Shown here in pieces: positions 6,401-44,892 of a DNA stretch of 59,195 nt (position 1 is its first letter; every line of letters begins with the position of its first letter). Source of the stretch: Chromera velia (taxonomy: Eukaryota); contig JAHBMJ010000014.1 of assembly GCA_018398765.1 (NCBI GenBank), positions 1 through 59,195 of the forward strand. Reading direction: 5' to 3'. Made by a program: the position numbers and the translations under genes. Under the pieces are notes generated by a model. That model saw nothing but the letters and a program-made list of their open reading frames with translations. It was not told the origin of the DNA and ran no database searches.

Positions 6401-7305
6401 AGACAAGTCATACGATCCCACGCGAACACATCACATAGATACAATAGAGAAGGCGAACGAACAAACGAACGAACACACCTGAGGGTCCTTGCAGACCATC
6501 TGCACAGGGTTGCACGCGAAGTTCACGATTGTGCTCGACTCAGTCTCCTCCGAGACGTTCAGGAACCCTGCAAGCAAGAATCAAGAAGCAGGCAGAAAGG
6601 CAGGCAGATGCATGCAACCGTCGGGAAAGGAAAGGGAGACTCATGTAGGAATGAATGCAAAGGGGCCTCTCGCCCCCCCCAGAGATGAGCACTGGACAGG
6701 CGAGAATCCCGTCTCCGCTAAAGGAAAGAAAGTGCAAGTTGGAGGAACGTTCAGACGAATAGGTCCAAATCTCTCAATACGCATCCACCCTTCAGTGCAT
6801 CTCTCAGAAACATCCAGTCTTCTCCGAGCTGGAAGCCATCCTGCCAGCCGTGCATGCCAGTGTCTAGTGTCTGACCTGCCACGAAGGTACTGTTCACGTC
6901 CTCCTCCATCATCAAGAGGTCCAAGAGCTCTGCCTCAAGGGAGAGGATCTCCTCCTCGGTTTCCGTCAACACCGGAATCTGCAGACGGAAAGACAGACAG
7001 ACAGATAGACAGACAGGCAGGCACGAGGGCCTTGCAGGCATGTCCAGGCATAAGTCTAGCTGGACTGAGCGCGGTAACCAGAGCAGCACGGAGACGAACG
7101 TAGAGAAAGCCCAGCGGAAAAAGCCCGTTTACTGCCCCCAAAGAAGGAAAAAAAGCCCCCCACCGACCGTGCAAGTCTGCGCACAGCAGTCTCCTCCGTC
7201 ATACTGGCACCTGCACTTAGAGGAACACAGACGGAGAAAGAGAAAGAAAAAGAAACTCAACAATCTACTGATCACTTGCCATCGCCCGAGATCGTTCCGT
7301 CCTCG

Positions 7306-7343
<38 letters not shown>

Positions 7344-10300: not shown

Positions 10301-12748
10301 AAGGCCGTCTGCACAAAAAACTCCATTTACAAAACCAATGAACAACAAGCAGCGGGAATCACGAAGGAAACTCTGCTTCCCCCACAACGGAACAAACCCA
10401 GACAGACAGGTCGGGAGGGGAGGCAGAGAGGAAAAGAGTTTCGAAAAACCACAGACGGAAACATCCAGACGGAATCGTATGTCGGGACACACCCATACAC
10501 GCGGACAGCTTGGAATTTCAAAATTGCAACAACACACACTGCAGGCCAATGGACCCACCCACCTGCTCCCCCTGCTTTGCCAGAGAGATCACGGCAACCC
10601 TGTTGGTCGGGCACACGAATTCCCTCTCTGTCTCCGCGCTCGACCTCAGCGTGTTACTGTACAAGAAGGTCGACTGAGGCAGCGCGTCAGGGGCCACACG
10701 GCCCGACCGGATCGTCTGGACGTTCAGGCATGCGGCCTGGAAGAAATAGGGGAAACAGTCGGCGGCGTTGCAAGAGAGGTCGTCTCCGTCGCCTGCGGGG
10801 AACGGTGGAGAGGGGGGGGGCAGAAAATGAGATCCTTACTCTTTGCGTTCCCCAGTTGCGTCTTTATCGTGAAGCAAATCGAGGAGACTTCACTGGCACA
10901 AACACGTACAGGAAAAAAGAAAAAAGAACGTCTGCAGAGACGGAAAAAAACAAAACTCCAGGAAGAGATCGGGAGGGAAGCCACAGAGAGCGCGTGCGCG
11001 CACGAGAGAGAGAGAGAGAGAGAGAGGCACAGAGCGAGAATGAAGACCCAACGACCCTTTCTCTCTCCCCTGCTTGCCTCCCCCGACTCACCCGAGAGAG
11101 CAGGGCATGCCGTCTCGAAGTCTGTGTCGCACGTCGCCCTCTCGGCCTCGTACTGCGCGTCGAAGGTCGCGAACCTCTGCGCAGACGTCTGGTAGTCGTT
11201 CATGAACTGCCTGAGGCTCACGATCTCCTCCACAGAGTCTGCGTTCAGAGAGTTGCCCTCAAAAAGGTTCCCTGGGTTCGTGCTTCCCTGCATACACACA
11301 CACACACACACACAAGCACAAGCAGAAGCAGACGTGTGTAAACACGCAAACCCCCACAGGCAAAAGCAGAGATGCAACACACAGATGCATCCACGCAGGC
11401 ACGTGCGATCGTTGCGCATCGCAAGCTCAAAATCTGACTGTCTCACAAGGAAACACAGAGAACCACAGATTTCTTTGGGCACTTGTCTGCTGCTCGTGTC
11501 TCTCTCTTCCCCCTGCCGATCCACCTGATCGACCAATGAGCCCGTGAGACCGACGTACCGCCAAGAGGTCGCGGCAGAAAGCGGTGCGAAGGGCGAACTG
11601 GTCGAAGAAGTACGGAGCCCTTGTGCACTCCTGGAAGCACTGGCCGGGCTGCACACCGTTGCACTCGGAGTCCACTGTGAACTTGGTGATGGAGCAGTCG
11701 ACTGGCGTGAAGTTGCAGTCGAGACTGTCGGGTCCTGCATCTCTGGTCTCTCTGGTCATGTACACGTCGTCTGCAGAGATGGTGTCGTCAAGTTCCCTGC
11801 AGAAACCGGAACCACTGGTCTCGAAGGTCGTGCGCCTCCGGCACGCGAGAGAAAAGGCCCGACAGAGGGAGACGCCGCCCTGGGCCCAGCACTTACACTC
11901 CGGTGGGGGGAGGACTAAGGGATTGCCCTGATTTCGGTCCCTAAAGTTGTTTCCGTCATCTCGGTAGGCCGCGTCTTGTGCCGCTTCTGTGGAACAAGTC
12001 GCAAAGTCGAAATCGGAGACGAAGGGAGAGAGGGCGGGATCTTCCGTGAGAGTGGTGGGCGCCTTTCTCCAAGCGTCGGTGGTGAAACATCGGTTGTCAA
12101 TAGCGCCGGGGGGGATCTGTATGCCGTCAAAATCAACTACCGTGAACGGGCCCCGCAGGTGGGTCTCCTCTTCCCGACAGGCCTCAGTGGGCCCACCAGG
12201 GAATATGAAGCCATTCAGAAAGCGCCCGTTGACGGGACAGCGGGCCTGCTCGTCAGAGTTCGGATCTCCGATATTCCCCTGAGCGCCCCTGTTGATGTCG
12301 CAGGTCCAGAACTCGTCTGGGCCCACGAAGTTCCGCAAATTCGTGTTCGGAGGGGGCACGTTGCACATGTTCATGTAGAAGTCGGGGAACGCCCTGCCGG
12401 AGCACTCAGCCGGCACTGAGCCGACTGGGTCGACCGTGGGCGTTCTCGTGAGGGTGCCTGGGACGACCTGCTGGGGGTTCGTGATTGCCGGGGAATTGGT
12501 GAGGAATGCCATGCGCCGCCAGCAGAGCTCTCGAGTGGCGTCGTCTGCAGAAGGACGGAAACGAATAAAGACAACAAAGCTGACTGACTCCTTGGAAAAG
12601 CAGTGGAAAGAGAGGCTGCAGAGAAGAAAGAGGAAGAGAGAAAGCCGAATGGTGCGCTCGAAAAAGGAAAAATGCAGGCGACCTGAACGAGTAGAACACG
12701 CACGTGTTCGCAAAATCCACTGCGTGAAAGACAAAACCCGCAGACACC

Positions 12749-12790
<42 letters not shown>

Positions 12791-13227
12791 AAGAGAGAGA
12801 GGGAGAGAGAGAGGACAGACACACACACAGACAGAGAGAGAGAGGCACTGACAGACTGACCACTGAGGCTGGAGACGCGATTGCAGAAATCCCATTGTCG
12901 ACTCGCGTCCACCTGAACGAACGCATGGGGCACAGAAGATCGCAGAGCGAGCACGGGGAAGGTAGGGAAAGTGAGGAAAGTGCGTATTCTTGATGAAAAT
13001 GGAGCCGGGTTTGTCTGGATGTGCCGCAACAGTCCTTTTGCAGCTGACTGGATGACAAATCAAAGGCACAGTGAAAAGCGGCTTCCTGTCTGCCTGACTG
13101 CCCCCCCTTCTCGTGCTAAGGAGTAAAGACGGACGTTGAGTGTCGGATCCTGCTGTTCGCTTCCGGGCTCCCCAAAAGACTTCGAGGTGAAGGGAGGGCT
13201 GAGCGGGCCCTCTGCAATCAGGTGAAT

Positions 13228-13263
<36 letters not shown>

Positions 13264-16200
13264 GCACGTATGCACTCATCCTCTGTTGCGAGAATTCCCG
13301 AAAGACCGAAAACGAATGAATCAGATCGTTCAAAGGAGCACTGTCATGCAAGGATGTCTGCTAAAAAGGAGACACAGTTGGAGCTGCCGTGAAAAGAAAG
13401 TCCGTCAATTCTCCAGACGCGACAAATAGGAGCCTTCCAGTGGCGCAAAAAAAACAAAAACGAACATTTTGTGGCCAGGGAGAGAGACCGAGAGGGCCAG
13501 TGAGTCAGGTCGACAACAAGAAAGTGGGGGATTATGACCAAGACGGTGGAAAGGCAGACAGAAAGAAGAGAATAAAGACGACAAAGAAGACGGAAAGGAA
13601 AGGAAAGGAAAGGACAGGAAGGGAAAGGAAAGAGGAAAGAGACGCTCACGTCCAGCCGCGGCCGCCCTGGAGCGGTCGTGTTGTCGCACACAGCGCCATC
13701 TGGCGCCTCCGTCGTGACCGCGCCCCCCCCTGTCTGTGGGGTGACCCTGACGAAGATGTCGTTATCCCTGAGGGGTCTCTTCGGAAGTTCGTTTTCATGA
13801 GTGGGGGGGCTCTCCGTTCTTGCCAATGGATCGTCTCCCGTGAACTGCCCCTGGTAGGAACGGGAAGAGAAGAGCTCCAGCTGGGGAATAATCTCACCTG
13901 CTGCCGTTTCACTAATGCAGAGGTAGGTGACCCTACCGAAGAATTGGAGCGTGTTGATTCCGAGTTTCTCCGCGACGTCGAAATCATCAGGAAGTCCGAA
14001 TATCTCCTTCATCTCATCTGCCGTCTCGTTGAGGAAGTCGGTGTCAATGGGCGGTGTCCTTCCCTCCCCGCAGCCGTCATTGTCGAATTGCAGTCGAGGA
14101 TCTGTCTCCAGGTTGACTGTGCAGGAAGTGTCACTGCCGCAGGGGAAGGAGATGAGACGGCGGATGTCCACCTGGCAGTCCGTCCGGAAAATCGTGCCCT
14201 CCACCACCACCGGGAACTCTCCGGTTTCGCAGGCGAAGGGAACGTTAAGCTGTTCGTCGCTGAACGCGTTCTTCTGAATGGCAAAGAGAGGATCTGCGGG
14301 GGGGAATCGGACCTGGACCTCGAAGGGTTCCTCGTCGATCCCTGCAGGCAGGCAGGCAGGCAGGAGGAGAAAGAGAGAGAGGAGGGATAAAGCGAGAGAA
14401 GACGGGGGCTGTGGGGGGTAGAAAGAGGTGAGGGAAAGTGAGAGACAGAGGCCGAAAGAAGGCTGTCACACCTTCCTTGTCGTACGGCAGAAATGACGAC
14501 AGGCACCAACGGACAGGCACAATCAGTGAATGAGTGGCAGCAACGGAAGCGGACGATGTGGTTGGGCCTTGTACTGTCCCTTTCCTCCCTTCAGGACAAA
14601 AGCCCACCCCCCCACTGACCCGATCGCAAGCATCCGAGCACGTCCACCTCAATGTTGCTGAACGCCTGGCGCAACTGCAAGGGAATAAAAGAGAACAGAA
14701 CAGAACGTAGGAGGAGCGAAAAGAAAAGAGTACATCGAAGCAAGCGCGAAAGCTGTCTATCCCAGAATCAATCGAGTGATCGATTTCCTGCAAAGAAGAG
14801 AAGCACTTGCTGCAAAACAGCCATCCCACTCCGCTGACGAAGCTTCTCCACTCCCTTCCGAAGCGAATCAAATGGCGACAAAAACAAATGCTCTCCGTCT
14901 TTCACACAGACTGTCTGAAGAGGCATGCAAGCTACGTCAGATGATGTATCGCAACTCTCTCGCGAATGCACGCGAAACTGCAAGGAGAGAAGCTGCCGAA
15001 GGGGACTTCCAAATAGGCAGACCTTCTCTTTGAGGTCGTTGACAATCTCCTCAAGGACTTCCTGAATGACTTCGAGGAAGTCGAGGAAGGTGAAGTCGGG
15101 GAACGGGAGGGGGATGTTGATCAGGTCGTCAGGAAAGTCGAAGACCTCAAGGATGAACTCAATCAAGAGGTCGATCAGCTGCAGCCATGCAAAGCGAGGA
15201 AAGAAATGATGAGGAGAACGAGGCTCCGGGCCTCCCTTTCACAGAACCCGAAGCTGCCCTTCTAGAACGAGAAAAGGAGGGGACGGAGAATTACAACGCG
15301 TCGTTCATTTCCCCTCCCCCAGTGCCATCTCCCCCAATTCGACACTCCGTCACACGAAGATAAATGAATGAATCCACTCGATGATCGCATTCACGTCATC
15401 AGACCCTCCCTACTCAATCAAGCGTCCGGAAGGCCATTCCATCCGACTCCACCGACCGACCTCGCCGCACGTGTTGATCCCGTCAAGTCCCGGGATGAGA
15501 GCGGCGATCAGTTTGCAGACGACGTCCAACAGCTTATCGATCAGATTCCCCAAAAATTCGAGGAACTGGAGGTTCAGGTCCAGCTCCTCCAGCCTCAAGG
15601 TGATCTCGAGGATGAAGTCGATGATCCCGATGTCGAACAGGTTGTCGAAGAACCTAGAGAATCTGCAACTAGCCAGAGACAAGCACTCAATCGATCCGAA
15701 AGAGGACTGACTCATCACAGCATGAGCATTCAGGGACGTTTCAAAAAAAAAAAAAGAGAGAGAAACTCTGCATGAATGCAGAGGGCTGAGCAAGCATGAA
15801 GGGTCCAACAGACCTCGGGAAAGGAAATACACAGTGGTGAAGAAAAAGCGTCAAGAGAGGCCGAGAGAAGCGGATCCAGTCAAGAACGGCATACGAAGAG
15901 CAGGCTGACGTTGCCCACTTCCCCCTCCCCTTTCAACACACTCTTCTGATAGCACACGAACCTTTCAAACCACGCCTCGATGAGCTCGTAGGCCCTCTGG
16001 AGGAATCCGAAATTCAGCGAGAAGATGCTCTTGTACAGGTTGTAGTTGAACTGCAACACGGGCTTGCAAGGCAGGCATGCGTCAGGGCACTCGCCCGCCA
16101 GCGTCTCGACCCGGCATTTTGACGAGCAGCGGAAGCAGAAGCCAACACGTCAACGTCCATACACCTCTCATTCCGAATGAGACGCACGGGACGACTGACT

Positions 16201-19200
16201 GTGTTTTGATGGGTGCATGTCGTGTGGGCACTTCGGTGGGGTGAGGGACTCTTGCACGCACTGACAAATACCAATTTCTTCAATTATCTGTCTGTACATG
16301 TAAACATCTACTTGCAGACAGACCTCCACTCGCTGCAATCATGCAGCCCCCCCCAACGTACCTCCAGGATATCGATCTGCGCGTTCATCACTGGGGCGAT
16401 GCTCGTAGTGCACGGGGACCCTGCAGACTCGGCCTCCAGCTGCGTCACGTTGGCCCTCAACTCCGCGAAGACTGCGATGTTCGGGTCGTCGTCAGTGTTC
16501 TGGAGCATGCGACGGAGAGCCTCCTTGACGGTGGGGACTCCTGCAAGTGCATGGGAGGGGGGAGGGGGGGGGGCAGAAGGAGATCTGTCGACTCATTGCC
16601 TTGGGCACAGCCGGAAAATCTGTGCATGCACGCGTTTGATGTCATCGCATAGAGTGACTGTCTCATGGTGCGAGTCCGTGAGAGGCCAGAGGAGAGGAGA
16701 GGAGAGGAGAAGAGAGGCAGGAGAGGAGAGGAAAGGAAAGGAGAGAAAGGAGAGGAAAGGGTCGAGAGGGAAGAGGCAGGCGTACCCTCAGTGCGACGGC
16801 GTTTCTTCAGCGTTTCTCTCTCGGCGGCCTCCTTGGCCTCCTGCTCGCGGTGAAGTCTGTATAAATGCAGAGAGAAAGGTAGGCAGGCAGAGGGGATGAC
16901 AGGTGAGAGCAGTGAGTGAATCGATACACACGCGACCTGAAGAAAACTGAGTGGAGTGCAAGCAGACAGAAGAGCGGCAAAGTCAGAAAGAAGCGAGAGG
17001 CCGGTCGTTGATTCTTTCATTCATTCTGGCGTGCGTACACATGTTCGTTTTCTCCGTCTGCAATTCGCCCCCTTCCATGCAGAGCCTCCAGCGAGCATTT
17101 TCCGGGGGGCGCTGAATCCTTCCTGCCGTCATTCACGTTTTTGGTTCGGAATCCTGCCTGCCTGGAGATCCCCATGCACTCACCCCTTCCTGGCTCCCTG
17201 CTTGACTGACTGACTGACTGACTCTGCGAGTTTGCGTTTCTCTCCCTCCCACCACTCTTGCTCCTCCTTCTCCCAGTCTGCCCGCGTGGGGAACGGCACC
17301 GCCTCAGAGAGGGTCCGTCCCTTCACAGTGAAGGTCCCATTTGTGTATTTCTCTTTGCCTTCTTCTCTGAGAGAACGGCGGAGGGCCTCCGACCGAGGCA
17401 GAGAGGACCCCTCTGCAACCCCCAGGGAAGCCGCCCGTGCCTCTCTGAAGTCTCTCTGGGCTGTGCGGAGGAGCCGCTTGACCCCCAGCATTTGTGTTCT
17501 CCGAGCGCGCCTCTGAGTCAGTTTGCGCTTCCTGTCGTGGTCCCCCTCCTCCATCTTCTGCATCCTATAGACCTCAAACAGCGAGGGCTCCCCCGTGTCT
17601 GCAGCCCCAAAGTTGACGTTCTCGAACAGCCGTCGGCCAGCATCCTCAAAATCCAATCCACCTGCTGGTCTCGCACTGCTGCCCCCTTTCCCCTTATTCC
17701 CTCCAGGTTCTCCCGTCTCCTTCGAGAGCCGACGACGCCGAGAGCCCCCAAAGATCTGACGGAAGTCAATGAACTCGACGGGCACCGGGAGTCCCACAGG
17801 ATCGGGGGTCACGACGGTGTCTGCACCCGTGCACACACCATTCCTCAATCAAGTTCGTGATTGGGGAGTACCTTAAAACAATGGGATGCATTCATATGTT
17901 CGCAAAACTTTGAGAAACACACGCGCATTGACAGAGGACAAGAAATCAGAAAGTCTGCCGAACAAATTTGCATGTCTGCTGGTGCCATGCCCTTTCCCCC
18001 CTCTCCGCAGTCGTCCAACCCCACTCGTCTCATTCTTCCCTCACCTTAGCCTCTCACTCACTCACTCACTCACCCACCCACCCTCACTCACTCACTCACT
18101 CACTCACAAGCACTTCCCTCTTTCAACTCTCCCTCTTCTAGCTGCCCTCCTCTTCTGACCTGACTCGAAGAACCTATTGGTCCTCTGAGAGAGGTTGTTG
18201 ATTGCGCTGTTGGAGGCTGTGCAGGAGAAGAATCGGAACGCCTGACCGAGGGCGATCTGCTCACAACATCCATGCAGAGAAAGACGAAAGACACAGCTAG
18301 AAGGAAGGCACAACACCCAGATTTGAAAGAGATGCTACACGAGAAGACGAGCAGTCGCTCTGACACGCTGTCAAGGACATCCAGGTGACCTCATGCTTCC
18401 TCTGTTTACTGGACAGCTGTGGACTACAAACGAAACGCGAGAAGAGAGCTAGTGCGACAGTTTGTAACAACGCACGAGAAGCATGCAAAGGCAGGAAGGC
18501 AGCAGAGGCACAGAGAAACAAGAGAGATGAAGCCATCAATGAGGTTCAAAAATATGCGCATGCAGTGGATCAAAGGACGGATGGAAAACGAAAATGCCGC
18601 ACAGCTTTGAGGAGCTCACTCCTTCGGTGTTCGAGCAGACCGACCGTCGCATACCGAATGTACTTGATCAGGTCGCCTGCATGCATGCACCGATCGGCGG
18701 ACGGAGACAAACGGCAGTCCAACGTGAATGAACTCTTCGTGTCTTCCTTTTTTCTTTTTTGCGACTTTTCTTTTCCTGCTTCGTTGAGTTTACGGATGAA
18801 GGGACAGATTGACATGCACACGTTGATTCAAGCAGTGCTGGGTGGGTTCCTCAACGCACATGCAGAGGAAAGGAGAAGAAAATCAGACGAGACGCCACCC
18901 CCATGCAGGTTTAGAGAGCGCATGTAGGAGCTTGAATGAATGTACCTCAGTACAACTCCATTGCTTTTCCGTGTTCTTCTCGCCTGCCTGCCTCCTTGCC
19001 TGCCTGCCGACTGACCAACCGTTGATGAACATGAGGATCTTCACAAACCACCTCCAGAAACCGCTCTGGCAGGCGTTGGCGTACAGCTCCATCACCTGCA
19101 TGGGCGCGTGCACAGAGAGAGGGAGACGGACTCGGAGGCAGGCAGGAAGACAGGAAGGCGAACACTAAAATCTTGGAGCAGAGTGGAAAGACAGCAATAA

Positions 19201-20334
19201 AACCTTTCCGCGAGTGAGGATTGATAGGATGGCTCTCTCTTAACAGAATAGAAGGTAAAACAAACCGTCGATCGATCCCCCTTCTCACATAACATAACAT
19301 GACATGACATGACATTCAGAGAGTGAGAGACCTTCTGATCTGATCTAATCTGATATAGGGAGGTTGCCGCAAGGGGGGGGGGGAGCATCGTTCGTAGTGG
19401 TGCTGCGGAAATCAGGCAAGGCTCTGATAACCCCCTCCACAAAGATTTCTCTGTGTTTTGTCTGTCTTTGTCAGCTCATTCACTCATTGCTCTCTCTCTC
19501 GTTCATCCATTTTGTTCTTCAGGGGCGGGAAAAATTGAAAAAGCCGCATGCATGAGCGGCATTGAAAAATAATTGAATGCATAAAGAAATCACAGAAAAC
19601 AGACAGAGAGAGAAAGAGCGGCTGACATCTTCAGGCGGTACTCGAAGAATTCGAAAGAACCGTGTGAGGGCCTGCGCCACCCTGGACAGTCCCGTCCCGA
19701 CAACCCCAGGAACAAGCCGCGAGAGCCTCCTGAGAGTTACACCCGAGTTAATCAGTCGGCCGATCTCTCTGAATTTACTGTTTTTCTGCATCCATACACG
19801 GGGGGAGGAGAGGTCGATCAGTGAGGAAGTACATGCAGCTGATATGTCAAAGGAGGAAAGGGGGGAAAAGGGAGAAATGGAAAGAAAGGCAACAAGCGGA
19901 CAGGGAGGGGAGGGGAAGGGAGGAGAGGAGAGAGAACCGATCGCATGCAATGGGTTGCGGACGAGACCGAACGAAAGACTGGAAGAGAGAGAGAATGTGA
20001 AAGACGGGGAGCGGACTCGGAGAGAGGGACATGAATTCATTCTGTGCGGCACTTTGCGCGGGGAAAAAAAAAAAAGGTCGGATGAGATGACGCTGTCCCG
20101 CGTGTCGATCGACTGACGCACGCACGCCCAGGCTGCCCGGACGGACCGACTTACCGAGGAGAACGCCGCATTGGTTCCTCTGCTCCTGCTGCTTTCGACG
20201 GTGTTTCCCCTGCTGTTCTGGTTGTTGTACTGGTTGTTGCCGTCCCTGTTCCGATTCTGCAGGCAGGCAGACAGGGAGACAGGCAGGCAGGCAGGGGCAA
20301 CAGCACCACACTCATTCGTTAGACGATCTTCTAC

Positions 20335-20408
<74 letters not shown>

Positions 20409-22006
20409 GGAGAGAGAGAAACGGAGAGAGAGGGGGAAAGGGGCGGTAGAGATCGCCATCTCTTCTTTTCTGATCGCGTCGCTCCCCCTCGAGACAGACC
20501 CCTCCGTTTTGCTCTACCGGCCCTCGGGGGGGTCGTCTCGTCTCGTCTCTTTTCGCACAGAAAGAAAGAAAGGGGACTTTACGAGTGGTTTGATGCAGAT
20601 CGGACATTGGAAGGAAGAGGAAATGAAGACACCGCCGGCCGGAGAGGGAAGGAAGCGGTGGGTTTCACCAGATGTCTGAATTAATTCAACCGAGTCTGTC
20701 TGTCTGTGCATGGGCGTTCTCTCCCTCGGAGGGGAAAATTGAATCCCTCTGAGCTTCTTGCTTGCATGGAATTGCAGTCACGTCTCTCTTTTCAATTGAG
20801 CACCACGAAATCTAGAGCAGGCGAGAGAAGAGAAGAGAAGAAGAGAGGCATGTAACGAAGGTGCTGCATTGCCCCATTCCATTGCAAGCCCTTCCAGGCA
20901 GAGAGCCTGTCCTGCAGTGAACCTGAAAAACTGAGATTATCGACCCGTGCACCGTGGGATTTGTTCTCTTTTGCTTGCGCACTTTTACTCACTTATGTAC
21001 TTACCGAATCTGCGTCGTCGCTCCGAAAGAACCTGCAGAGTCCCGGGCACTTTCGGCCAGAGCCCACCTGAAGCTTTCCCCGTCCGCTGCTCCTGTCCAC
21101 GTTTCTCCCAAATCTCTGCATGCATGCACGCATGCAAGCAGACCGCATCATCCATCCTGTTATTTGCTTTGCTTTGCTTTGCTTTGATTCACCCTGGGGT
21201 TATGAAGGGACTGGAAGGTTCAATGTAGAGTCAACGATCGGTCCGAGCACATGCGCGAGAGGACGGAAAAGCGGGGGGGGTAGCTGTTCGTCCTGCTCGT
21301 CCATCCCTTTCCATGACGATAAATAACTCCGAGTCGACATCCACTTACCGAGACTGAGGTCTTCAGTTGCCTCGCCTGTCCAGGAGTGATGCGAGTAAAC
21401 GTCGCCCCCCCCCCCCCATNNNNNNNNNNATTGTCCCCCTGCAGGCGACGACGGTCTCCAATGTCGGCGTCTCCCTCGGAGAGCCGCCTTGCGATCGTTA
21501 CGACCGTTGTATCCATTTCGGTGGTCGCGTCCTCGATTTGGCCGCTCACGGTGTTCGGCGTGGGAGGCGGATTGGCCATGCAGGGGGGCTGCAGGGAGCA
21601 GCACAACAACATGCAAGCACATGCATGCAGTGGAGCAGAATAGACTCCTTCCGGCCATCATTTGTCAGCGAGAAGTCAGCACGTAAGTAAGTAAGCAGGG
21701 GTGGACGGACAGGACTTCAAACGCCAAAAAAACAAAAAACAGAGAGAGATTCAGAGAGGCAGGCGGATCCAGCCTCAGCCAGGCCCCCAGCTTTTGTTTT
21801 CACACAAGAGAGCGTAAGGAAGTGACTGAGCGAGCTGGTAAAAGGTAGAGAGAGGGACAGAGAGGGACAGGAAGGGGGGGGCAAAAGCAGCGACTCAGAC
21901 AGCGGGGAAAACATACACACTCACACACACACACACACACACAGCAGCACACAGCAGCACACATACACCCATACACTCACACTCACACTCACTCCCACTC
22001 TCACAC

Positions 22007-23820: not shown

Positions 23821-24743
23821 GTCAGCAAGCGAGAAATTGAAAGAACAACAAGTGCTGAGAATGGAGACGGCAAACCAAACTGTCGTCTCAGATCTTTTTC
23901 CGATTTCACCCCGATCTGCGTCAGATGCGATGCTCTCCTCTTCTTCCCTTGAAGCTGAAAGCTGCGCGGTGTTTTTTACATTCACAAGACTTTAATACAG
24001 CGGCTCGTCGGGGTCATGACCCAATTAAAGAAGTCTGCCAAGCTACAGGTTACTTCTCCATGCGGGCGATCGAGGGATCTGGTCTCTCTGCCCTCAGATT
24101 CCGCACCTTCAGACGGCTCTAATCGAGGACACAAAGAAAAACTTTTCCGAGCTGACAGGCAAAAAGAGGGATGGCCTCCCGATCAAACAGTCCAGGGGTC
24201 ATGAAATGGCAGAGCAGAGGAGAGCAGATACAGCGACTCAGCATATCTCAGCAACTCTCAGATTTTTTTTTTTTTTACTCTCAGATACTCTCAGCATTGG
24301 GGATCATTGGGGCAAGCCGGGATGCGCGCGTCAGGCCCGCGGGACCTACCAAAAATATTTCGGCCTTAATTATGATTTCACAATTAAGACGGCCGCGCGG
24401 CCCGCGCGGCCTGCGGGACCGACCATGCATGCGGGACGTCAAAGGCTTAGCTCGGTCGGCCGCGCATCTTTCGCGAGACTGCTATAGAAGAGTTGAAGAG
24501 TTGAAATTGAAAAGTCTTTTTACGCTTCAATGTGTAGCAACGCACGGAACTGCTGTTCCTCTTGCCCGCAAATCACATTCATTTCTATCACGATCCCTCC
24601 TTTCTCCTTCGAATTCTCCTGTTACGAAGCATCGCTGGGAACCTGACGCTGCTCCATAGCTTATTGATCAATTAAGACCTTTTCAAGCGACAAGCCGATC
24701 CAGTTCCCTCCTGTGCCAACGATCTTCTCTTGTGACTCCCGAA

Positions 24744-26332
24744 ATGAAGGTGTTCAGCGTCATCGCATCGGTCTGTTTGGGCAGTGCGGTTGCTCAACAG
24801 TCGGTTTCCACAATCGACGCCCGAGAGGGCAACCTCTCCCTCGAGCACTCCTGCACGACTGGTGAGCTTATCTCGACCCTCCTTCCTCCCACATCACCAC
24901 CTGCACTCGTATCAACCATGCATCATGCATCCCCGCCCTCCCTGTGTGACTGCTGTGCTGCAGGTGTGAACAACCGTCAGAGCATGGTGGCCTACCTGAT
25001 GCAGAGCCTGCAGGACTTTGAGGAGGGCACCGCCGGACAGCCGTACACCTTTGTCTTCACGTCAGTCACATGCCCTCCCTATCTACGTGGGACATTGCCG
25101 TCTCCCCGTCTCCCTCCCACACAAAGCCTTCAGTCGACTTCCTTCCAACCTTTCAAAATTTCGCTCCATCGCGTGCCTCCTTGACTCCAGACATGAAGTC
25201 ACTTTGGTCTCAGCACACCAAGGCTTCCCTCTTTCCACCTTCTCTTCTTCGTTTCTCTACACACTGGTCTTTCAATTGACTCCGTCTACCAACCCTTTCA
25301 CATTTCCTCGCCAAACTCGACTTCTGTCTGTCTGTCCGTCTGTGCAGGTACGAAAAGGACGGCACTCAATACTGCCCCAAGAGACTCACCGTCGTGGATG
25401 ACAGAGTCGCCGCCGTCTCCAGCGTGTCTTCCTCTACCTCTGACACCCAGACCGACTCCCCCTCTGCTTCCGCGTCCCCTGCCTGCACTGAGCAAGCGGA
25501 CTCCGAGTACATGCAGATGACAGTGCCTGCCATCCTCAACCACATGCTGGCTGCTTCCGAGACCGCCTACAGGGTCTGTTGGGACTCAGCCACCAACGTA
25601 CAGACAGGAGAGAGGTCCTCTCGGGGATTTATCTCCCAGTCCAGCGAGAACGAAAAGGATGCCATCGCATTTGCTATCGATAACATCTCACCTCACACTC
25701 CCCAGAGCCAGGAGGAACAGGGACAGGCAGAAGCCCAAGAGGAGCAACCTGCGTCCGAGCCTCAGGGTACGACTTCAACTTCCACCCCCAATCTGAGAGG
25801 CTCTCCGTCCCCGGCTTCTACTGCGTCGGGCAACAGACGCCGACTTGAGTGGTGGCCTGCCGTTACTGGCGGTGTTGCGGGTGCACGTGCTGGGAATAAC
25901 TCCTACACTACAGCGGGGGGCGCGGCTCGCGGAGCTGCCAGAGGGGCGGCGCGGGGTTGCGTGTCTGGAGCCATCTGGGATGGGACCTGTGGCACCGGTG
26001 CGTTTGTTTTTTTTCTCTGCTGCATTTTTTGTTTCGCCTTGTATATCTTTCAGTGAGTGACGTTCACAACGGTTGGGTCATTGTGTCTCCTGAGTACTTT
26101 CAGAGATCGATCATGTATCATTGTTCCTCACTTCCTTCCTCCCTTTCTTTTCTTCCCTCCTTCCTGCCGCTGTTTTCCCAGTCTCCATCATTCGTTTGTA
26201 TTCCGTACTCTGTTCCTTCCTCTAATCTTCGTCCTGCTGTATCGTTTACTCCCTGCAGGTGCTGCCGAAGGGGCAACGACCGGAGCTGTGGCAGGAGGGA
26301 TCGCTGGAGGGAGTGGGCCCTACTACAGATAA
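24744..26332 (+). CDS. Secreted 312-aa precursor with RRRL site and C-terminal glycine-zipper peptide
   Basis: Exons 24744-24861, 24964-25060, 25348-25997 and 26259-26332 have canonical GT..AG ends and compatible phases (939 nt). N-terminus MKVFSVIASVCLGSAVAQ is signal-like. C-terminus is RRRL-EWWPAVTGGVAG...GAARGAARGAARGCVSGAIWDGTCGTGAAEGATTGAVAGGIAGGSGPYYR. Confidence 0.85.
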
Positions 26333-26999
26333 ATGAAGAAGACCTGTTCGCTCATGGAGAGAGACACAGGAATCTGACTTCTGTTGTTGTTGTTGTAAGA
26401 ATGGGGGTTGTTGAAAGGAAAACCTCGAGGGAAAAGGAAAACCGTCACAGAATGACCTGCCGTTTTGGGGGGTGACGCGACTCCTTATTATTATATGCTT
26501 GGTTTTTTTGTCTGCATGCACACGTGTTGCACTGGCACAAGACAGAGCACACGCCGGCGCGCTGTCTCCATGGAGGGTTGAGAAGAGGCTAGCTCGGTTG
26601 GGCTCGGTTAATTTTCCAGTCAGCAAGCAATTGCACGAGGATGTGACCTGGATGTCCGTCCTAGCTGCTGCTGGAAGAAGCGAGCGAAGCAAGTTGCGAC
26701 CTTGATCCAAGCCTGCATGGAGAGAGCGTGTGTGGATGAATCGTGTCAACATTGAGCGGTTGCGTGATCAGGTTGACAGATTCAAGACACATGGTTGATG
26801 AGAGCCTCAGATCAAGAGGAGCAGGGCCATATGCAGAATTGGTGCGGCATTGGTGCCTGCGTCTCTCGATCTTTCGGTCTTCGCCATCTCTCTCTGTGAA
26901 GTTTGTGTGGTGTTTGTGTGTGTTTACATCTTTTTCACGTAGGACTGCGCGGTCGAACCCTGGTTGGAACCCGTTGAGAAACTTGTACAAGCTAAGACA

Positions 27000-33914: not shown

Positions 33915-35814
33915 ATGGCGTCTCTGCTCAGGACCGTTGCTGTCACTGCTGCACTCACGATCTGCCTAGCGAGGTCCTCTCCCTCTTCCTCTCCCTATGC
34001 TGGTGATCCTCAGCTCGACGTCCAGGGCCTTTCTCCGACGGGGAGTCTCAAAGATCTTCAACCGCGCATCGCAAAGAAATACGAGTTTTTTGTCAGTCGT
34101 TTCAGTTTGCATGAATCTACATGTATATATATACATATCCATTCGTGCATGCGCTCTGTATGGATACATATGGACTGCGTGGACCGGAGCCAAGAACCAT
34201 CTTGTTACACTGACCGTTTTATGGAAGGACGACTTGGTGTGCGAGAGTTCAAACACACATGCAGCTCACCAACGGAACCTCTTCCGTCATTTCCCGTGCA
34301 ATCTTCTCGAGGCCGGATTTTCCTCCTGCGTCCCCATATATATCCCTTTTTGTTACACCCTTGGTTTCCCTTTATTCTTTGGCCCACCCCTGCTTTTGGA
34401 CTGCATGCATGCTGTTTCCTTCTCCTGGCCTGCCCTTCTTCTGAGACCTCCCCCCCGCGTTTTCATATCCACTTTCCCAAAGCAACCATTCATGCACTTC
34501 TTCACGCATGCGGTACCTGCGCAGGCCCGACTCGGGTTCTCTCCAGAGGAGAGTAGAGCGCTCGTGCTCGCAAGAAGGCCTCACGGAGACCCCTCAGGTC
34601 CCACCTCAGTCGCTGCAGCTGCTGCCGACACTGTGGCCAGAAGCAACCCCTCCCGCTGTTTCTCCACCCCCCCCCCAACGCAGACAATAATCAAAAAGGC
34701 GTCTCTAGGCGAATGCCACCCAGGCCTGGTGGACGAGAGGCAGCTTGGGAAAGGAGCTTTTGGGCACGTATCTGCAGTGAAGCTCTCTTCCGATCCTCCT
34801 CCCGAGGACACAGCGGACCTCTACTCAGGTCTGGAGGAGGGAAGGACCTACGCACTCAAAACCTTTAACGCAGGGGGGTGGATTGCACCCACGGGAGAGG
34901 TCGAATTTCCCGCAGCACTCGCGCTAGAGAGTGCTCTCAGAGAGATCTGCGTGGGTGAAGACGCGAGCAAGGATGGGGTCGGTCCGAAGGTCTATGGCAG
35001 CTGGATTTGCACGGTTCCGCCGCCTCTGCCGAACCAGTCTGAGAAGAATTACGCTTTCATTTTGATGGAAGAGCTTCAAACTTCCTTATTTTCCGCTCTG
35101 CAAGAGGCCGAGCAGAAGAATCTGATTGTGACCCCCGATGCGCAGAAAAGCGTTTTGGGACTGCAGGAAAAATTCTTTGCAGATGGGTACATCCAAGTTG
35201 ACAATCATTTTGGAAATTGCGGCATCGACAAGGAAGGTCGCATGAAGTTGTTGGACTTTGGGATTGTCCTAGATACCAACTGGAAGCCTGAATTACCCTC
35301 GTCAGAGCAAGACTTGGCGGTTCTATCGAAACTGCAGGCATCCCTGAAGTCGTATGCTGGCATTCTATCGTTTCAAATACAGAAAACGCCCTACTATAGG
35401 CACGGAGACCATAGCGAGGACAACATTGCAGAAAGCGTGTATGAAGAGCTGAATAAGTTGGAGAAACTCCGCGGGTACCAGTGGATGGCTCACGCAGCGT
35501 TTCTGCGTCGGGCCGTGTATCCCTTTCCTCCAAACAAACAGATGGGTGGTCGACTCGATTCTGGAAAAGCTGGTCTTGAAGGCTTCTCAACAACAGCAGC
35601 AGCAGAAGAAGAAAGAGAAGAAGAAGAACAACGATTGAATTCAGCCAAACGGCAGGGCGAAGGTGAAGTAGAAGAAGAAAAGTTGGAGCCGATCCAAATA
35701 AAAGTAGAAGTAGAGGAGGCAGTGGAGGAAAAGAAAAAGAAAACTACCCTTCAACTGAGGGGATCATCCGCAGGAGGATTTTCATATGCTTTCGATCACT
35801 TAGTTCATGATTGA
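33915..35814 (+). CDS. Secreted atypical protein-kinase-like enzyme (~488 aa, 2 exons)
   Basis: Exon 1 (33915-34091) starts MASLLRTVAVTAALTICLA, signal-like. A phase-0 intron joins it to exon 2 (34525-35814), which contains LGKGAFGHV, YALK, REI, IQVDNHFGN and LLDFG. Confidence 0.85.
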
Positions 35815-36760: not shown

Positions 36761-38062
36761 TCACGGTCGGAGTTGATCAATCGATTCGTGTAAAACATAC
36801 TTGCCTACAAATCTGTTGCCCTTTCGAAGATTTTCCTCCGACCACATTGGTTGCAGGTTCGAGAAATGCAACCTTGCAATTTGGGTCTCCGGATTCGGTT
36901 TCTTTCCGTCCGGTCCCGGGAACTTTATGGGTGTGATATGATCGACGTGCCAGTGAGTCCCATAGTTCTCCCACGACATCCCGGGGTTGTTATGAAAGTT
37001 GTTCATCTCCAGGTGCGCCTTCAGCTGCTCAAAGGAACAGCCAATATACTGAACTGTACGTTTTTGATAAGCACTGAGAGAAGGATTCTTTATGACGGAT
37101 AGCTTCTCCCGAATCGAAGAGAGGTGTTTCCAGACGGTCCTTCGAGCTCCGTGAGTCAATCGAAATACTATGTCTTCTTGGTAGCGCAACCTTCTCTGGG
37201 TATTGTAACGCTGCCTTTTCTCTTGAAATGCAGGATTCTCTTTCTGACAGACTGCGCAGTGACCGCGCTGGCGACCATGCTCGCAGATTCCACTCCCTCC
37301 GCAGTCCCTACACTGACTGCGCCTGCGTCTGTGTTCACAAAAATTCTTCCCGCCGCACTCTCTGCAATCACCGTGCCTGCGACCATGCTCACACAGTCCT
37401 TTCCCGCCGCACTCTTTACAATACCTTCGCTGACGGCCGTGTTCGCAAATGCTTTTCCCACCGCACTCTCTGCAAAAACTTCGCTGACGTCCATGCACGC
37501 AAATTCCTTTCCCTCCACAGTCCTTGCACTGGTTACGTTGACGACCGTGTTCACAGATATACTTCCCACCACACTCTCTGCACTGATTGAGGTGGCGCCC
37601 ATGCTCACACAGTCCTTTTCCACCGCACTCGATGCAATACCTTCGCTGGCGGCCGTGTTCGCACATACTCGTCCCACCACACTCCCTACAAAAATTGCGC
37701 TGGCGTCCATGCACGCAAATGCTTTTTCCACCACAGTCCTTGCATTGGTGGCGCTGGCGGCCGTGTTCGCAGATATTTCTACCCCCACATTCCTTGCACA
37801 TGTGACGTTGGCGTCCATGCTCACATATTCCTTTGCCTCCGCAATCTTTGCAGTAGTACGCCTTCTTGCCGTGTATGCAAACGGCCTTTGGTTTTACTGC
37901 AGTTGTCGGAAAGACAGGGGCCGGTCCAGAATTCTGTGCTACATTCCTGCTTTCACCTGCTTCTTTTGCTTTAAATTTCTCCGGATTGTATCCCGGTGTC
38001 AGACACACAGAAGCCACAGGGGAGAACGCACGGCTCTGGAAGGCGGTATGGAGAGCTAACAT
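36761..38062 (-). CDS. Tandem zinc-binding repeat protein fused to C-terminal HNH endonuclease (433 aa from ATG 38062; open frame extends to 38425)
   Basis: Single exon. Twelve 18-aa xCxHGRxRxxCxxCGGxx repeats are followed by a basic helix (KRQRYNTQRRLRY) and YIGCSFEQLKAHL..GMSWENYGTHWHVDHITP..LHFSNLQPMWSEENLRKGN. The latter is the DH..N..N pattern of phage/giant-virus HNH homing-type endonucleases. Confidence 0.9.
   Translation of the reverse strand: MLALHTAFQSRAFSPVASVCLTPGYNPEKFKAKEAGESRNVAQNSGPAPVFPTTAVKPKAVCIHGKKAYYCKDCGGKGICEHGRQRHMCKECGGRNICEHGRQRHQCKDCGGKSICVHGRQRNFCRECGGTSMCEHGRQRRYCIECGGKGLCEHGRHLNQCRECGGKYICEHGRQRNQCKDCGGKGICVHGRQRSFCRECGGKSICEHGRQRRYCKECGGKGLCEHGRRHGDCRECGGKNFCEHRRRRSQCRDCGGSGICEHGRQRGHCAVCQKENPAFQEKRQRYNTQRRLRYQEDIVFRLTHGARRTVWKHLSSIREKLSVIKNPSLSAYQKRTVQYIGCSFEQLKAHLEMNNFHNNPGMSWENYGTHWHVDHITPIKFPGPDGKKPNPETQIARLHFSNLQPMWSEENLRKGNRFVGKYVLHESIDQLRP
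37235..37882 (-). repeat. Coding tandem repeat, 12 x 54 nt (18-aa Cys/His units)
   Basis: Exact 54-nt period from VCIHGKKAYYCKDCGGKG to ICEHGRQRGHCAVCQKEN. Confidence 0.95.
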
Positions 38063-38179
38063 CCAGGCAGAGTGAGGAAAGTTGGCGGTACCCGGGTAAG
38101 TAAAAAGTCCCCGCAGCAGAGAGGCGCGTTTGCTTGACTGAGGGATTGAGACCTCGGGTGAAAGGGAACGAAGGGACGG

Positions 38180-38314
38180 ATACCTGCCTACAACTCCGTT
38201 TCCCTTCCGAAGATTTTCATCCGACAACATCGGCTGCAGGTTCAAGAAGTGCAACCGCGTTATTTGAGTATCCGCCTTTAGCTTCTCTCCGTCTGGTCCC
38301 AGGAAGTTGATTGG
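38180..38314 (-). pseudogene. Truncated second copy of the HNH C-terminal tail
   Basis: PINFLGPDGEKLKADTQITRLHFLNLQPMLSDENLRKGNGVVGRY is 31/45 identical by hand alignment to the tail at 36797-36931. It lacks the upstream WHVDH motif. Confidence 0.85.
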
Positions 38315-39339
38315 TAACCCAATCACACTGAGACACCCTGTACGCCTACAGCTTCTGGTGCTGCGAAGCAGCGTTTGAAGCGCACTCTGCATCAGACCAC
38401 AGATGCGGGCAGCTGTACCAGGCAAATCCTTGCAGTCTCAGTCTGTCAATATCCTGTACAAAGCCGACTTCCTAATGCCGGCAAGGGTTCACGAGGATGC
38501 AAGGACACGTGAGTCAGCGCAGCTTTTTTCATTCTTGTGTGGGGTTTCAGAATGAAATCCAGGGCGGACCCTCTCCAGACTGAATGAGTTGTAACCACTA
38601 CAAATAGAGTCCCAGGTAACAGATCTGTGTAACTTGCATGATCTGTGTAGCTCCCAAGTATATCAGCCTTTGCATTTCAACTGAATGTTGCTGTGCAGGA
38701 CGCCTGCCACCGTTTCTTGTCAGAGTTTGTTGAATCGATACATGCAGGCTGTAGCATTTATATTCGTGTTGAATTGACTGCAACACATGCATGCAATGCA
38801 ACAATGCAACACATGCATGCAAACTTGGACTTTTATTGAGGCGTTGCTTCTCGCGTGGATCACTGCGTGCATGCATGGCTCGGTCACATGCACTGCAATT
38901 CCTTAAAGCATGCGGGGAAGCAGCTATATATAGGCGTGGCTCAGCCTTAGATTTGCAAGCGAGGGAGTCCGAACTCAGCCAAAGCTATCATACGCCAGTA
39001 GCTCGGCAACGCGCTCCTATATATGCCCTCTCGTTCAATCAAGGCTCGGCGATGATCGCGCAGTACGAGTTATGTTACACGGATTGCCAAAAGCGCTCTG
39101 CCACACAGCCTCGGCCCATCTTCCGAAAGCTCTAATGCTGAATCTACACGAAGCTTTCTCCATGCACCTACAACAAACACAACGTGTCGGCAACGTCGGT
39201 GGCCGACCTTTTGAGTTAGCTTGACTTTCTCCTGCATTGATCGCGACGGTCTGTCAGCTCTCCCGGCTGGTGTATCTGCGGAAGTAGTGGATTCTTCAAT
39301 CGACTTTGTAATCGTTGCTTTTGATAGAAGTGGTCTGAA

Positions 39340-39912
39340 ATGTCTAAGGACACGAAAAGTGTGCAACTGGCGGCGGGCTGCCAGGAGGTGTATATGCTAA
39401 AGCTGTCCCAGGGTTCAAATTCTCATGTTGTGCGAGGCCAAGGTGCCGGGACCGCCATTGGCGCGGGAGTGGGTCTTGCGGTCGACGTTGTCACTCTTGG
39501 ACTGACGGGGGGCCTCGGCACAATGCTCGGAGGGCCTCAGTACTGGGAAGGGCTGAAGGGGAAAAGTTCGGGGGAGATTCGATCAGTGAGGTCCAGTTCG
39601 GCCGGTGCATGCGCAACTGCCTGGGTGAGGGCTGTTAACGAAAGGGCTGTAGGGTGCGAGACTGAACGTGCACTGGATGGGGTGTATGTAAGCTTCACCT
39701 CACCGTCACCTCAGGCCTCCCGTTGCATGGTGTGTATCGACATGCATCGTCGGAATCATTTCGGAATGGCGGCCGGGCTGCAAGCCTTCCTGCATGATGT
39801 TGCCACTGACTTGGTGAGAGCTCCCGGGACTCAATTTTCACGAGCCTTTGGAGTTTCTCTTGAAATCCTCGACTTTCCGGTCTACCATGACTATGCAGAA
39901 AAGTTCTATTAA
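39340..39912 (+). CDS. Hypothetical 190-aa single-exon protein with glycine-zipper hydrophobic hairpin
   Basis: ATG-to-TAA ORF containing GQGAGTAIGAGVGLAVDVVTLGLTGGLGTMLGG. No other recognisable motif. Confidence 0.45.
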   Translation: MSKDTKSVQLAAGCQEVYMLKLSQGSNSHVVRGQGAGTAIGAGVGLAVDVVTLGLTGGLGTMLGGPQYWEGLKGKSSGEIRSVRSSSAGACATAWVRAVNERAVGCETERALDGVYVSFTSPSPQASRCMVCIDMHRRNHFGMAAGLQAFLHDVATDLVRAPGTQFSRAFGVSLEILDFPVYHDYAEKFY

Positions 39913-44610: not shown

Positions 44611-44892
44611 TTTAAGTTAGGCCCTCACCGCAGGACCACCACCGCACAAACGACCACAGAGACCCACAATCCCCCCGCGACCTCAGAAAAACGTATCGCA
44701 GAGAAAAATGGGCTACATCGCAGCTTTGATTCCAGGAGAAACAGCAGTTCGATTAAGCAAGTCTGTCCCTCGATTTCCAGCAACTCTGACTGGCTGCTGG
44801 TCACTCAATCTGCTTGAAGGTCGTTGACAACGGCTCCCTCCATGGCCGGGTGTCCACAACGCGGAGAATCGCGGAGACGCCCGGGAAAAAAT

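What the first reader, a model, noticed from the sequence alone, without database searches (positions are those of the whole stretch)
24744..26332. Eukaryotic bacteriocin-like precursor: signal peptide, prodomain, RRRL, 74-aa glycine-zipper peptide
Seen: after RRRL (25835-25846) the composition changes abruptly to EWWPAVTGGVAGARAGNNSYTTAGGAARGAARGAARGCVSGAIWDGTCGTGAAEGATTGAVAGGIAGGSGPYYR. This has two GxxxGxxxG runs around a Cys pair, and the last run is visible only after splicing. Known: Gly/Ala-rich GxxxG zippers typify class II bacteriocins/microcins and other pore-forming peptides, and RRL is the cleavage motif of Toxoplasma ASP5. Inference: a proteolytically released membrane-active or antimicrobial peptide, kept inert by an acidic Cys-containing prodomain.
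Basis: partly seen in the sequence, partly recalled or inferred. Interest (0 to 1): 0.72.

Follow-up and report, generated by a model that had tools for sequence, protein, structure and literature searches.

The report
Algal glycine-zipper peptide precursor family
This is a spliced gene of a small, apparently undescribed protein family, most likely from the alga Chromera velia, whose product is likely secreted and cut at an RRL site into a domain resembling an unstudied bacterial surface domain and a glycine-zipper peptide that probably coats or reinforces the alga's own surface and may instead be an antimicrobial.

Summary
Four exons give a 312-aa protein, and all three introns appear in transcript contigs. 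It belongs to a small family: three Chromera velia paralogues plus one unnamed homologue. All five share the layout signal peptide – folded domain – RRL – glycine-zipper helical hairpin – Pro/Tyr tail. RRL occurs in 5 of 5, so cleavage is likely but not shown.

Two corrections. (1) The 'prodomain' is not just an acidic spacer. It is a folded domain, better conserved than the peptide (92% vs 81% to the closest paralogue), and remotely related to bacterial DUF6174 (profile-profile 81%, 0 of 120 shuffles reach the score). (2) The zipper scores closer to non-toxic bacterial envelope zippers (YMGG/OmpA types, SlyB-like hairpins) than to class II bacteriocins, and it is less hydrophobic and weakly cationic (+2). 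The design of acidic pro-region, RRL and basic peptide also occurs in diatom and Eimeria wall proteins.

Best reading (0.4): a processed, stress-responsive surface or wall peptide. Antimicrobial peptide remains a live rival (0.25). It is not a member of the class II bacteriocins. The domain combination is new; function is untested.

The parts
24744..24861 (+). Exon 1: start codon, predicted signal peptide (aa 1-17, 24744-24794) and start of the mature region
   Evidence: splice joint; signal peptide inferred from sequence
24964..25060 (+). Exon 2: first helix and first strand of the DUF6174-like domain
25348..25997 (+). Exon 3: rest of the DUF6174-like domain, linker, RRRL and first helix of the zipper
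26259..26332 (+). Exon 4: second zipper helix, Pro/Tyr tail and stop codon
24849..25690 (+). Folded N-terminal domain (aa 36-186, spans introns 1 and 2), remote DUF6174-like; Cys 37, 81, 118, 149
   Evidence: 122 of 133 core positions identical to P0002
25691..25834 (+). Acidic Gln/Ser/Pro-rich variable linker (aa 187-234), containing an LRG motif at 25793-25801
   Evidence: 18 of 48 identical to P0002; LRG precedes RRL in 3 of 5 members
25835..25846 (+). RRRL, predicted cleavage site (cut after Leu)
   Evidence: RRL in 5 of 5 members; cleavage itself is inferred
25847..26329 (+). Predicted mature 74-aa peptide (spans intron 3), net charge +2
25919..25969 (+). Glycine zipper helix 1 (five Gly at i+4), containing Cys276 (25958-25960)
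25988..25990 (+). Cys286; likely disulfide with Cys276 across the hairpin turn
   Evidence: Cys pair in 4 of 5 members; the bond is inferred
25997..26308 (+). Glycine zipper helix 2 (five Gly at i+4; first codon split by intron 3)
26315..26329 (+). Pro-Tyr tail; a PY motif follows the zipper in all 5 members and is expanded in two
26333..26900 (+). 3' untranslated region covered by transcript contigs (at least to 26900)

Best explanation
The gene encodes a two-module protein that is likely secreted and likely cut after RRL, releasing a predicted glycine-zipper helical hairpin that probably self-associates on the alga's own membrane or wall to reinforce the cell surface under stress. Shown here: the spliced gene, the family, the conserved RRL, zipper and Pro/Tyr tail, and remote likeness of the N-terminal domain to DUF6174. 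Inferred steps: (1) ER entry through the signal peptide; (2) cleavage after RRL in the late secretory pathway by an ASP5/plasmepsin V-type or unknown RXL protease; (3) the Cys pair staples the hairpin; (4) hairpins pack through their glycine faces into oligomers at a membrane or wall, as SlyB and YfgH do in bacteria, and the Tyr-containing tails may be cross-linked as in coccidian wall proteins; (5) the acidic linker keeps the basic peptide soluble in transit, while the DUF6174-like domain has a surface role of its own or carries the peptide.
For: RRL in 5 of 5 members, repeated two and three times in two of them. A PY tail follows the zipper in 5 of 5; in P0004 it becomes Gly-Pro-Tyr repeats (9 Tyr, 13 Pro, net charge 0), unlike a lytic peptide. 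The best Pfam/NCBIfam matches of the zipper are envelope types (YMGG, OmpA/YiaD), all under cut-off in Pfam. A family profile finds only zipper-region matches in 7 of 201 bacterial genomes; the two scanned are YMGG-type. The modelled hairpin aligns with SlyB (Z 5.7, rmsd 3.8, 53 residues), TraT (Z 5.2) and Tim17/22-type hairpins (Z 4.9-6.3), all weak. SlyB and YfgH stabilise the producer's own membrane (10.64898/2025.12.22.696046, passages). The diatom silaffin precursor has signal peptide, acidic N-terminal part and basic peptides released at RXL (PMC4557024, passages); Eimeria GAM56/82 wall precursors carry RRL next to Tyr-rich regions (PMC5718062, passages). Two transcripts assigned to Cvel_15419 are listed as up under mercury stress, |log2FC| 3.2 and 3.5 (PMC6920818, supplement rows).
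Against: No localisation, cleavage or oligomer evidence exists. The window's peptide has only 3 Tyr and no sequence match to GAM or COWP wall proteins. Its helices are weakly hydrophobic (best 19-residue Kyte-Doolittle mean 0.74, against 1.25-1.51 in six bacterial look-alikes), so membrane insertion is uncertain. Two paralogues have strongly cationic post-RRL parts (+14), one rich in Arg and Trp, which suits an antimicrobial as well. All fold matches are under Z 8 and may reflect only a common arrangement. Mercury raised 1070 genes, the table prints negative logFC for 'Up', and neither transcript could be tied to this gene. A Chromera ASP5 orthologue was not shown.
Confidence: 0.4

Rival explanations
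1. Antimicrobial or membrane-lytic peptide precursor: RRL cleavage frees a cationic glycine-zipper hairpin that forms pores in competing microbes, and the acidic pro-region keeps it inactive until release.
For: Post-RRL charge is +2, +5, +14, +14 and 0 against pro-region charge -16, -15, -40, -23 and -7 (Spearman -0.87, p 0.054, n = 5 non-independent proteins). P0003 has an Arg/Trp/Pro-rich tail. Helix 1 is amphipathic (moment 0.48). Glycine zippers occur in CdzC/D and class IIb bacteriocins (PMC5380434, passages). The peptide is slightly less conserved than the folded domain (p 0.04).
Against: In CdzC/D the zipper x-positions are exclusively small hydrophobic residues and G+A+V+I is 75%; here it is 59%, with Arg, Glu and Thr in the zipper. 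Bacteriocin_IIc scores are 9-10 bits against a cut-off of 27. The peptide is 81% identical between paralogues and shows no coding difference in transcript contigs that differ in the 3' UTR, so it is not hypervariable. The most hydrophobic member (P0004) is uncharged with a structural-looking tail.
Confidence: 0.25
2. The DUF6174-like domain is the working part (a surface binding, protease-control or lipid-carrying domain), and the zipper peptide is its membrane tether or sorting unit, from which RRL cleavage releases it.
For: The folded domain is the most conserved part between the closest paralogues (122 of 133). Bacterial DUF6174 proteins occur without any zipper (27 loci), often with a lipobox-like motif (16 of 23 open frames by a loose pattern), and Atlas clusters fuse the domain to Kazal or TIMP protease-inhibitor domains. 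Weak fold likeness to LolA/LppX-type lipid carriers recurs (4mxt Z 6.0, rmsd 3.9, 111 residues).
Against: A simple anchor would not need the conserved Cys pair, the PY tail, or the long Arg/Trp and Gly-Pro-Tyr extensions. The zipper is the best-matching part in the distant homologue P0004. The carrier-fold matches are under Z 8.
Confidence: 0.2
3. The released peptide is a signal (a peptide hormone or pheromone), in the manner of plant RALF precursors, which from my own recall have an acidic pro-region, an RRXL site and a basic disulfide-bonded peptide.
For: Precursor logic, disulfide and conservation of the peptide between paralogues. The RALF comparison is recalled and comes from no call.
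Against: A membrane-length glycine-zipper hairpin and the very different tails suit packing better than receptor binding; the residue before RRL varies (R, H, E, A-R), unlike the recalled RXXL rule.
Confidence: 0.08

Closest known systems
Bacterial DUF6174 proteins (Pfam PF19671)
   Same: Colinear motifs and predicted helix-three strands-helix-three strands layout over about 105-130 residues; both are exported proteins.
   Different: Below Pfam detection; different Cys pattern (CP...CW instead of CxC); fused to RRL plus zipper, which none of 27 bacterial loci carried within about 1.5 kb.
Bacterial glycine-zipper envelope proteins (YMGG-like PF13441, OmpA-type PF13436, SlyB, YfgH, TraT)
   Same: Two glycine-faced helices joined by a short turn; best family scores and weak fold matches.
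   Different: Not lipidated, predicted to be freed by RRL cleavage, stapled by a Cys pair, less hydrophobic in the window's gene, and followed by a Pro/Tyr tail.
Caulobacter CdzC/CdzD and class IIb bacteriocins
   Same: Small processed peptide with extended GxxxG runs.
   Different: No double-glycine leader, transporter or immunity gene; polar and charged residues inside the zipper; 59% vs 75% G+A+V+I.
RRL/RXL-processed wall precursors: diatom silaffin Sil1p and silicanin, Eimeria GAM56/GAM82
   Same: Signal peptide, acidic N-terminal region, RRL/RXL sites (repeated in paralogues), basic or Tyr/Pro/Gly-containing products.
   Different: No sequence homology; those products lack a glycine-zipper hairpin and a DUF6174-like domain; only 3 Tyr in the window's peptide.
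Toxoplasma ASP5 substrates (GRA16, MYR1)
   Same: RRL with tolerant downstream positions, also far from the N-terminus as in MYR1 (PMC4764566, passages).
   Different: Free-living alga, no host export; no homology to any GRA; the protease is not identified here.
Cathelicidin precursors (recalled, not from a call)
   Same: Signal peptide, folded pro-domain and cleaved C-terminal peptide.
   Different: No cystatin/cathelin match in fold or sequence searches; the peptides here share a conserved core.

Membership tests
Class II bacteriocins / microcins / Cdz | Double-glycine leader removed by a dedicated ABC transporter | tested here: not met
   Eukaryotic signal peptide, 217-aa pro-region and RRL instead
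Class II bacteriocins / microcins / Cdz | Match to Bacteriocin_IIc or related profile above cut-off | tested here: not met
   9.6 and 9.2 bits vs cut-off 27.1 in P0003 and P0005; not listed for P0002, P0004 or window exon 3
Class II bacteriocins / microcins / Cdz | Zipper x-positions exclusively small hydrophobic residues | tested here: not met
   Arg, Glu and Thr in the window's zipper; 59% G+A+V+I vs 75%
Class II bacteriocins / microcins / Cdz | Membrane permeabilisation and killing of target cells | not testable with these tools
   Needs assays
DUF6174 (PF19671) | Pfam score at or above 23.8 bits | tested here: not met
   Not listed for P0002-P0005; a home-built profile of 18 members gives 3.8-12.5 bits
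DUF6174 (PF19671) | Remote homology over the whole domain with the same fold | tested here: met
   hhalign probability 81%, E 1.2e-5, 104 columns, score 36.6 vs 10.6 +/- 2.0 in 120 column shuffles, none reaching it; Atlas structure TM 0.50-0.60 to DUF6174 clusters, alignment scores under the Atlas's naming bar
Glycine-zipper domains (PF13436, PF13441, PF05433) | Two GxxxG-repeat helices joined as a hairpin | tested here: met
   Two five-Gly runs; predicted helices 263-285 and 289-306 of P0002 at pLDDT 55-71
Glycine-zipper domains (PF13436, PF13441, PF05433) | Pfam score above cut-off | tested here: not met
   Best 24.9 vs 28.9 (P0003) and 21.8 vs 27 (P0002)
Glycine-zipper domains (PF13436, PF13441, PF05433) | Helices hydrophobic enough to span a membrane | tested here: inconclusive
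   Window 0.74 and P0002 0.65, but P0005 1.38 and P0004 1.79, vs 1.25-1.51 in bacterial look-alikes
ASP5/TEXEL substrates | RRL in a secretory protein | tested here: met
   5 of 5 members; consensus RRLxx from PMC4764566
ASP5/TEXEL substrates | Cleavage after Leu by an ASP5 orthologue | not testable with these tools
   No genome held; passages read did not state a Chromera clade D enzyme
Tyrosine-rich oocyst wall precursors (GAM56/82) | Tyr-rich domain flanked by RxL/RRL motifs | tested here: inconclusive
   Only 3-5 Tyr in the Chromera peptides, 9 in P0004; no homology
Tyrosine-rich oocyst wall precursors (GAM56/82) | Wall localisation and dityrosine cross-linking | not testable with these tools
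   Needs localisation and chemistry

The most novel reading that the evidence does not exclude
A free-living relative of the malaria parasite makes bacteriocin-like pore-forming peptides from precursors assembled out of two bacterial envelope modules: a DUF6174-like carrier domain and a glycine-zipper hairpin, released at the RRL site that apicomplexans later used for effector maturation. This would be a eukaryotic antimicrobial family, a first function for DUF6174, and a pre-parasitic role for RRL processing.
Probability: 0.2. Interest if true: 0.8.

Novelty: new variant of a known kind. Interest (0 to 1): 0.5.

Why it matters
Chromera is the closest free-living model for how apicomplexan secretion arose. 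A small, expressed family with a strictly kept RRL far from the N-terminus gives a clean native substrate for asking whether ASP5/plasmepsin V-type processing predates parasitism and what it did there (wall building, envelope repair or defence). It also gives a eukaryotic handle on DUF6174, for which the paper search found no mention. The peptides are short enough to synthesise, and Chromera can now be transfected (PMC12407925, abstract), so each rival is directly testable.

Tried and rejected
No whole genome is held for the window, so paralogues were counted from protein collections and transcript contigs only. tblastn of P0002 finds no second copy in the window. Word-based homologue searches found only P0002 or P0002 and P0004; only near-length proteins were searched. 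The window's own 312-aa product was not returned by any protein search. No match in plasmids; P0004 found no relative in metagenome contigs (209 pattern hits, none confirmed). The scan of genome contigs with P0002 got no answer and was not repeated. PDB sequence searches gave nothing under E 0.19. Foldseek gave nothing under E 0.001; VIA best Z was 4.8 and 6.3, so no solved fold is assigned. An internal two-fold repeat in the N-domain was not detected. Global-mode hhalign of the two-sequence profile against DUF6174 was not significant (51 of 150 shuffles reached it), and a first 23-member profile scored P0002 at 1 bit. The complex prediction of N-domain with peptide gave no verdict (score 0.00, alignments not used). 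No RNA holder was on record as RNA. The Atlas search for the C-terminal peptide returned no usable answer. No zipper-like or Kazal-like frame lay within about 1.5 kb of 27 DUF6174 loci (609 frames). Paper searches with no hit: Chromera + RRL + aspartyl protease, DUF6174, Chromera velia + secreted + horizontal gene transfer + antimicrobial; the three Cvel ids were absent from 12 of 16 supplements of PMC4501334, and 4 were not searched. Horizontal transfer from bacteria was not tested by a tree: the likeness is too remote and the sample too small.

Full report
Gene model. Exons 24744-24861, 24964-25060, 25348-25997 and 26259-26332 give a 312-aa protein with three GT..AG introns. Transcript contigs show all three joints: intron 1 in 3 runs, intron 2 in 3 runs from 2 studies, intron 3 in 3 runs of one study, plus a matching loose end in the second study. 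One of the 6 runs laid held none of the gene. The contigs match the coding sequence without a difference; the differences seen lie in the 3' UTR. RRRL sits at aa 235-238 and is followed by 74 aa that are 51% Gly+Ala. Two five-glycine i+4 runs arise in 33 of 100,000 shuffles.

Organism and family. The closest relative is P0002, Cvel_15419 of Chromera velia (316 aa, 70% identical over exon 3). The same runs hold both the window's transcript and a second, deeper contig whose loose ends translate to stretches of P0002, so the window is most likely C. velia; this is inferred. A search of 1.84 billion representatives returned 4 proteins at E up to 0.001: P0002, P0003 (Cvel_15049, 473 aa), P0005 (Cvel_14327, 284 aa) and P0004 (unnamed, 267 aa, with a near-identical P0006). 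With the window's gene this makes five distinct members. All have a signal-like N-terminus, a folded domain, RRL, a zipper and a PY-containing tail. RRL occurs 1, 1, 3, 2 and 1 times where composition predicts 0.02-0.23. A Cys pair 9-10 residues apart sits at the hairpin turn in 4 of 5. Tails differ: short in the window's gene, Arg/Trp/Pro-rich in P0003, Gly-Pro-Tyr repeats in P0004.

Conservation. Between the window's protein and P0002 the folded domain is 122 of 133 identical, the linker 18 of 48 and the post-RRL peptide 60 of 74 (domain vs peptide Fisher p 0.04). The peptide is conserved, not hypervariable, and the zipper is the best-scoring stretch against the distant P0004.

The N-terminal domain. 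The Atlas placed aa 18-195 of P0002 near bacterial DUF6174 clusters by features (0.84-0.86, lead level only) and by structure (TM 0.50-0.60 over 111-130 residues). I collected DUF6174 matches from 7 of 301, 12 of 101, 1 of 401 (under cut-off) and 3 of 151 bacterial genomes. Of 26 usable matches I kept 18 and dropped 8 near-duplicates; one partial and one sub-threshold match were left out. With two Chromera sequences, local hhalign scored 22.7 (0 of 150 shuffles), while global mode was not significant. With five family members the probability was 81%, E 1.2e-5 over 104 columns, score 36.6 against 10.6 +/- 2.0 in 120 shuffles, and 13.6 for the reversed profile. Unsupervised alignment puts the motifs in the same order end to end. 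AlphaFold2 on P0002 rose from mean pLDDT 45 alone to 64 with paralogues and DUF6174 rows, mostly 72-90 across the domain apart from one loop; the bacterial rows bias that model, so it is not independent proof. Pfam itself does not list DUF6174 for any member. The domain is DUF6174-like, not a formal member. No solved fold is assigned; LolA/LppX-type carriers recur weakly (best Z 6.0, rmsd 3.9, 111 residues). Earlier scan notes report DUF6174 in diatom surface proteins and beside Kazal inhibitors; these are unchecked leads. The Atlas shows Kazal and TIMP fusions, but my 27 loci showed no Kazal-like neighbour.

The peptide. It is predicted as two helices, 263-285 and 289-306 in P0002, at pLDDT 55-71. 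Pfam scores are highest for YMGG and OmpA-type zippers and low for Bacteriocin_IIc, all under cut-off; NCBIfam lists YiaD-type zippers for 4 of 6 rows. A family profile hit 7 of 201 bacterial genomes, all in the zipper region; the two scanned are YMGG-type exported proteins. Fold matches of the hairpin are SlyB, TraT and Tim17/22-type membrane hairpins at Z 4.9-6.3, too low to be specific. The window's helices are weakly hydrophobic (0.74) next to six look-alikes (1.25-1.51; the seventh had a stop and was omitted), whereas P0004 and P0005 reach 1.79 and 1.38. Post-RRL charge is +2, +5, +14, +14 and 0, and tracks the acidity of the pro-region (Spearman -0.87, p 0.054, five related proteins).

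What the literature adds (passages only unless noted). ASP5 cuts after RRL, tolerates the next residues, and can act far from the N-terminus (PMC4764566). RXL/RRL processing also marks diatom wall proteins (PMC5525289), and the silaffin precursor has an acidic N-terminal part with basic released peptides (PMC4557024). Eimeria wall precursors carry RRL beside Tyr-rich regions, where its role is assumed, not shown (PMC5718062). CdzC/D zippers are almost wholly hydrophobic (PMC5380434). SlyB and YfgH zippers stabilise the producer's own membrane (10.64898/2025.12.22.696046). Two transcripts assigned to Cvel_15419 are labelled up under mercury, among 1070 up-regulated genes (PMC6920818, passages and supplement rows); one could be this gene, which I could not test. 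The passages of PMC8540915 did not state a Chromera clade D protease, and those of PMC4501334 did not cover this family.

Mechanism. Secretion, cleavage after RRL and a disulfide-stapled hairpin are likely under every reading. What the hairpin does is open. I favour a self-surface role (0.4) because the nearest zipper types are non-toxic envelope proteins, the tail is Pro/Tyr-based in all five, one member is uncharged with structural-type repeats, the precursor logic matches known wall proteins, and the stress response fits. An antimicrobial role (0.25) is best supported by the cationic paralogues and the charge balance. A leading role for the DUF6174-like domain (0.2) and a signalling peptide (0.08) remain.

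Verdict. The new element is the fusion of a DUF6174-like domain, an RRL site and a glycine-zipper hairpin in a eukaryote. Three paper searches found nothing on it, in a library that lacks most subscription journals. Interest 0.5.

Noticed in passing
window 39328-39909 (+): A 194-codon open frame with another short Gly/Ala/Val-rich zipper-like stretch; weak DUF3482 match (19.7 bits, under cut-off). Unrelated to the family by tblastn.
   Followed up: partly
window 36764-38437 (-): A 558-codon frame with about 14 tandem Cys-x-His-Gly-Arg zinc-ribbon-like repeats and a C-terminal HNH-like motif (by eye). No Pfam match at E 0.01; a fragment of its C-terminal motif is repeated at the frame's start. 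Possibly a mobile endonuclease gene.
   Followed up: partly
window about 2600-21000 (-): A large multi-exon gene or genes for a surface protein; one exon (9221-9835) has four Ephrin_rec_like Cys-rich repeats (68 bits).
   Followed up: partly
window 42073-44616 (-) and 33970-35811 (+): WD40-repeat exons and an ABC1 atypical kinase-like exon; ordinary neighbours with no evident link to the finding.
   Followed up: no
window 25998-26056 (+): If intron 3 were retained, exon 3 would read on into a hydrophobic Phe/Cys-rich 17-residue tail and stop, giving a possible membrane-anchored form; no contig showed retention.
   Followed up: partly
window 24330-24470: A GC-rich island with CCGCGCGG-type repeats and palindromes about 300-400 nt upstream of the start codon, next to a T run; possibly promoter or a small mobile element.
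   Followed up: no
L132, L142, L143, L144 (G361:C1:4414387-4416529): Four DUF6174 genes in tandem in one bacterial genome; L123 has two DUF6174 domains in one protein and L122 fuses it to a dockerin-like domain.
   Followed up: no
window 24744-26332: The window's own protein was not returned by any protein search, so it may be missing or differently modelled in the public annotation.
   Followed up: no
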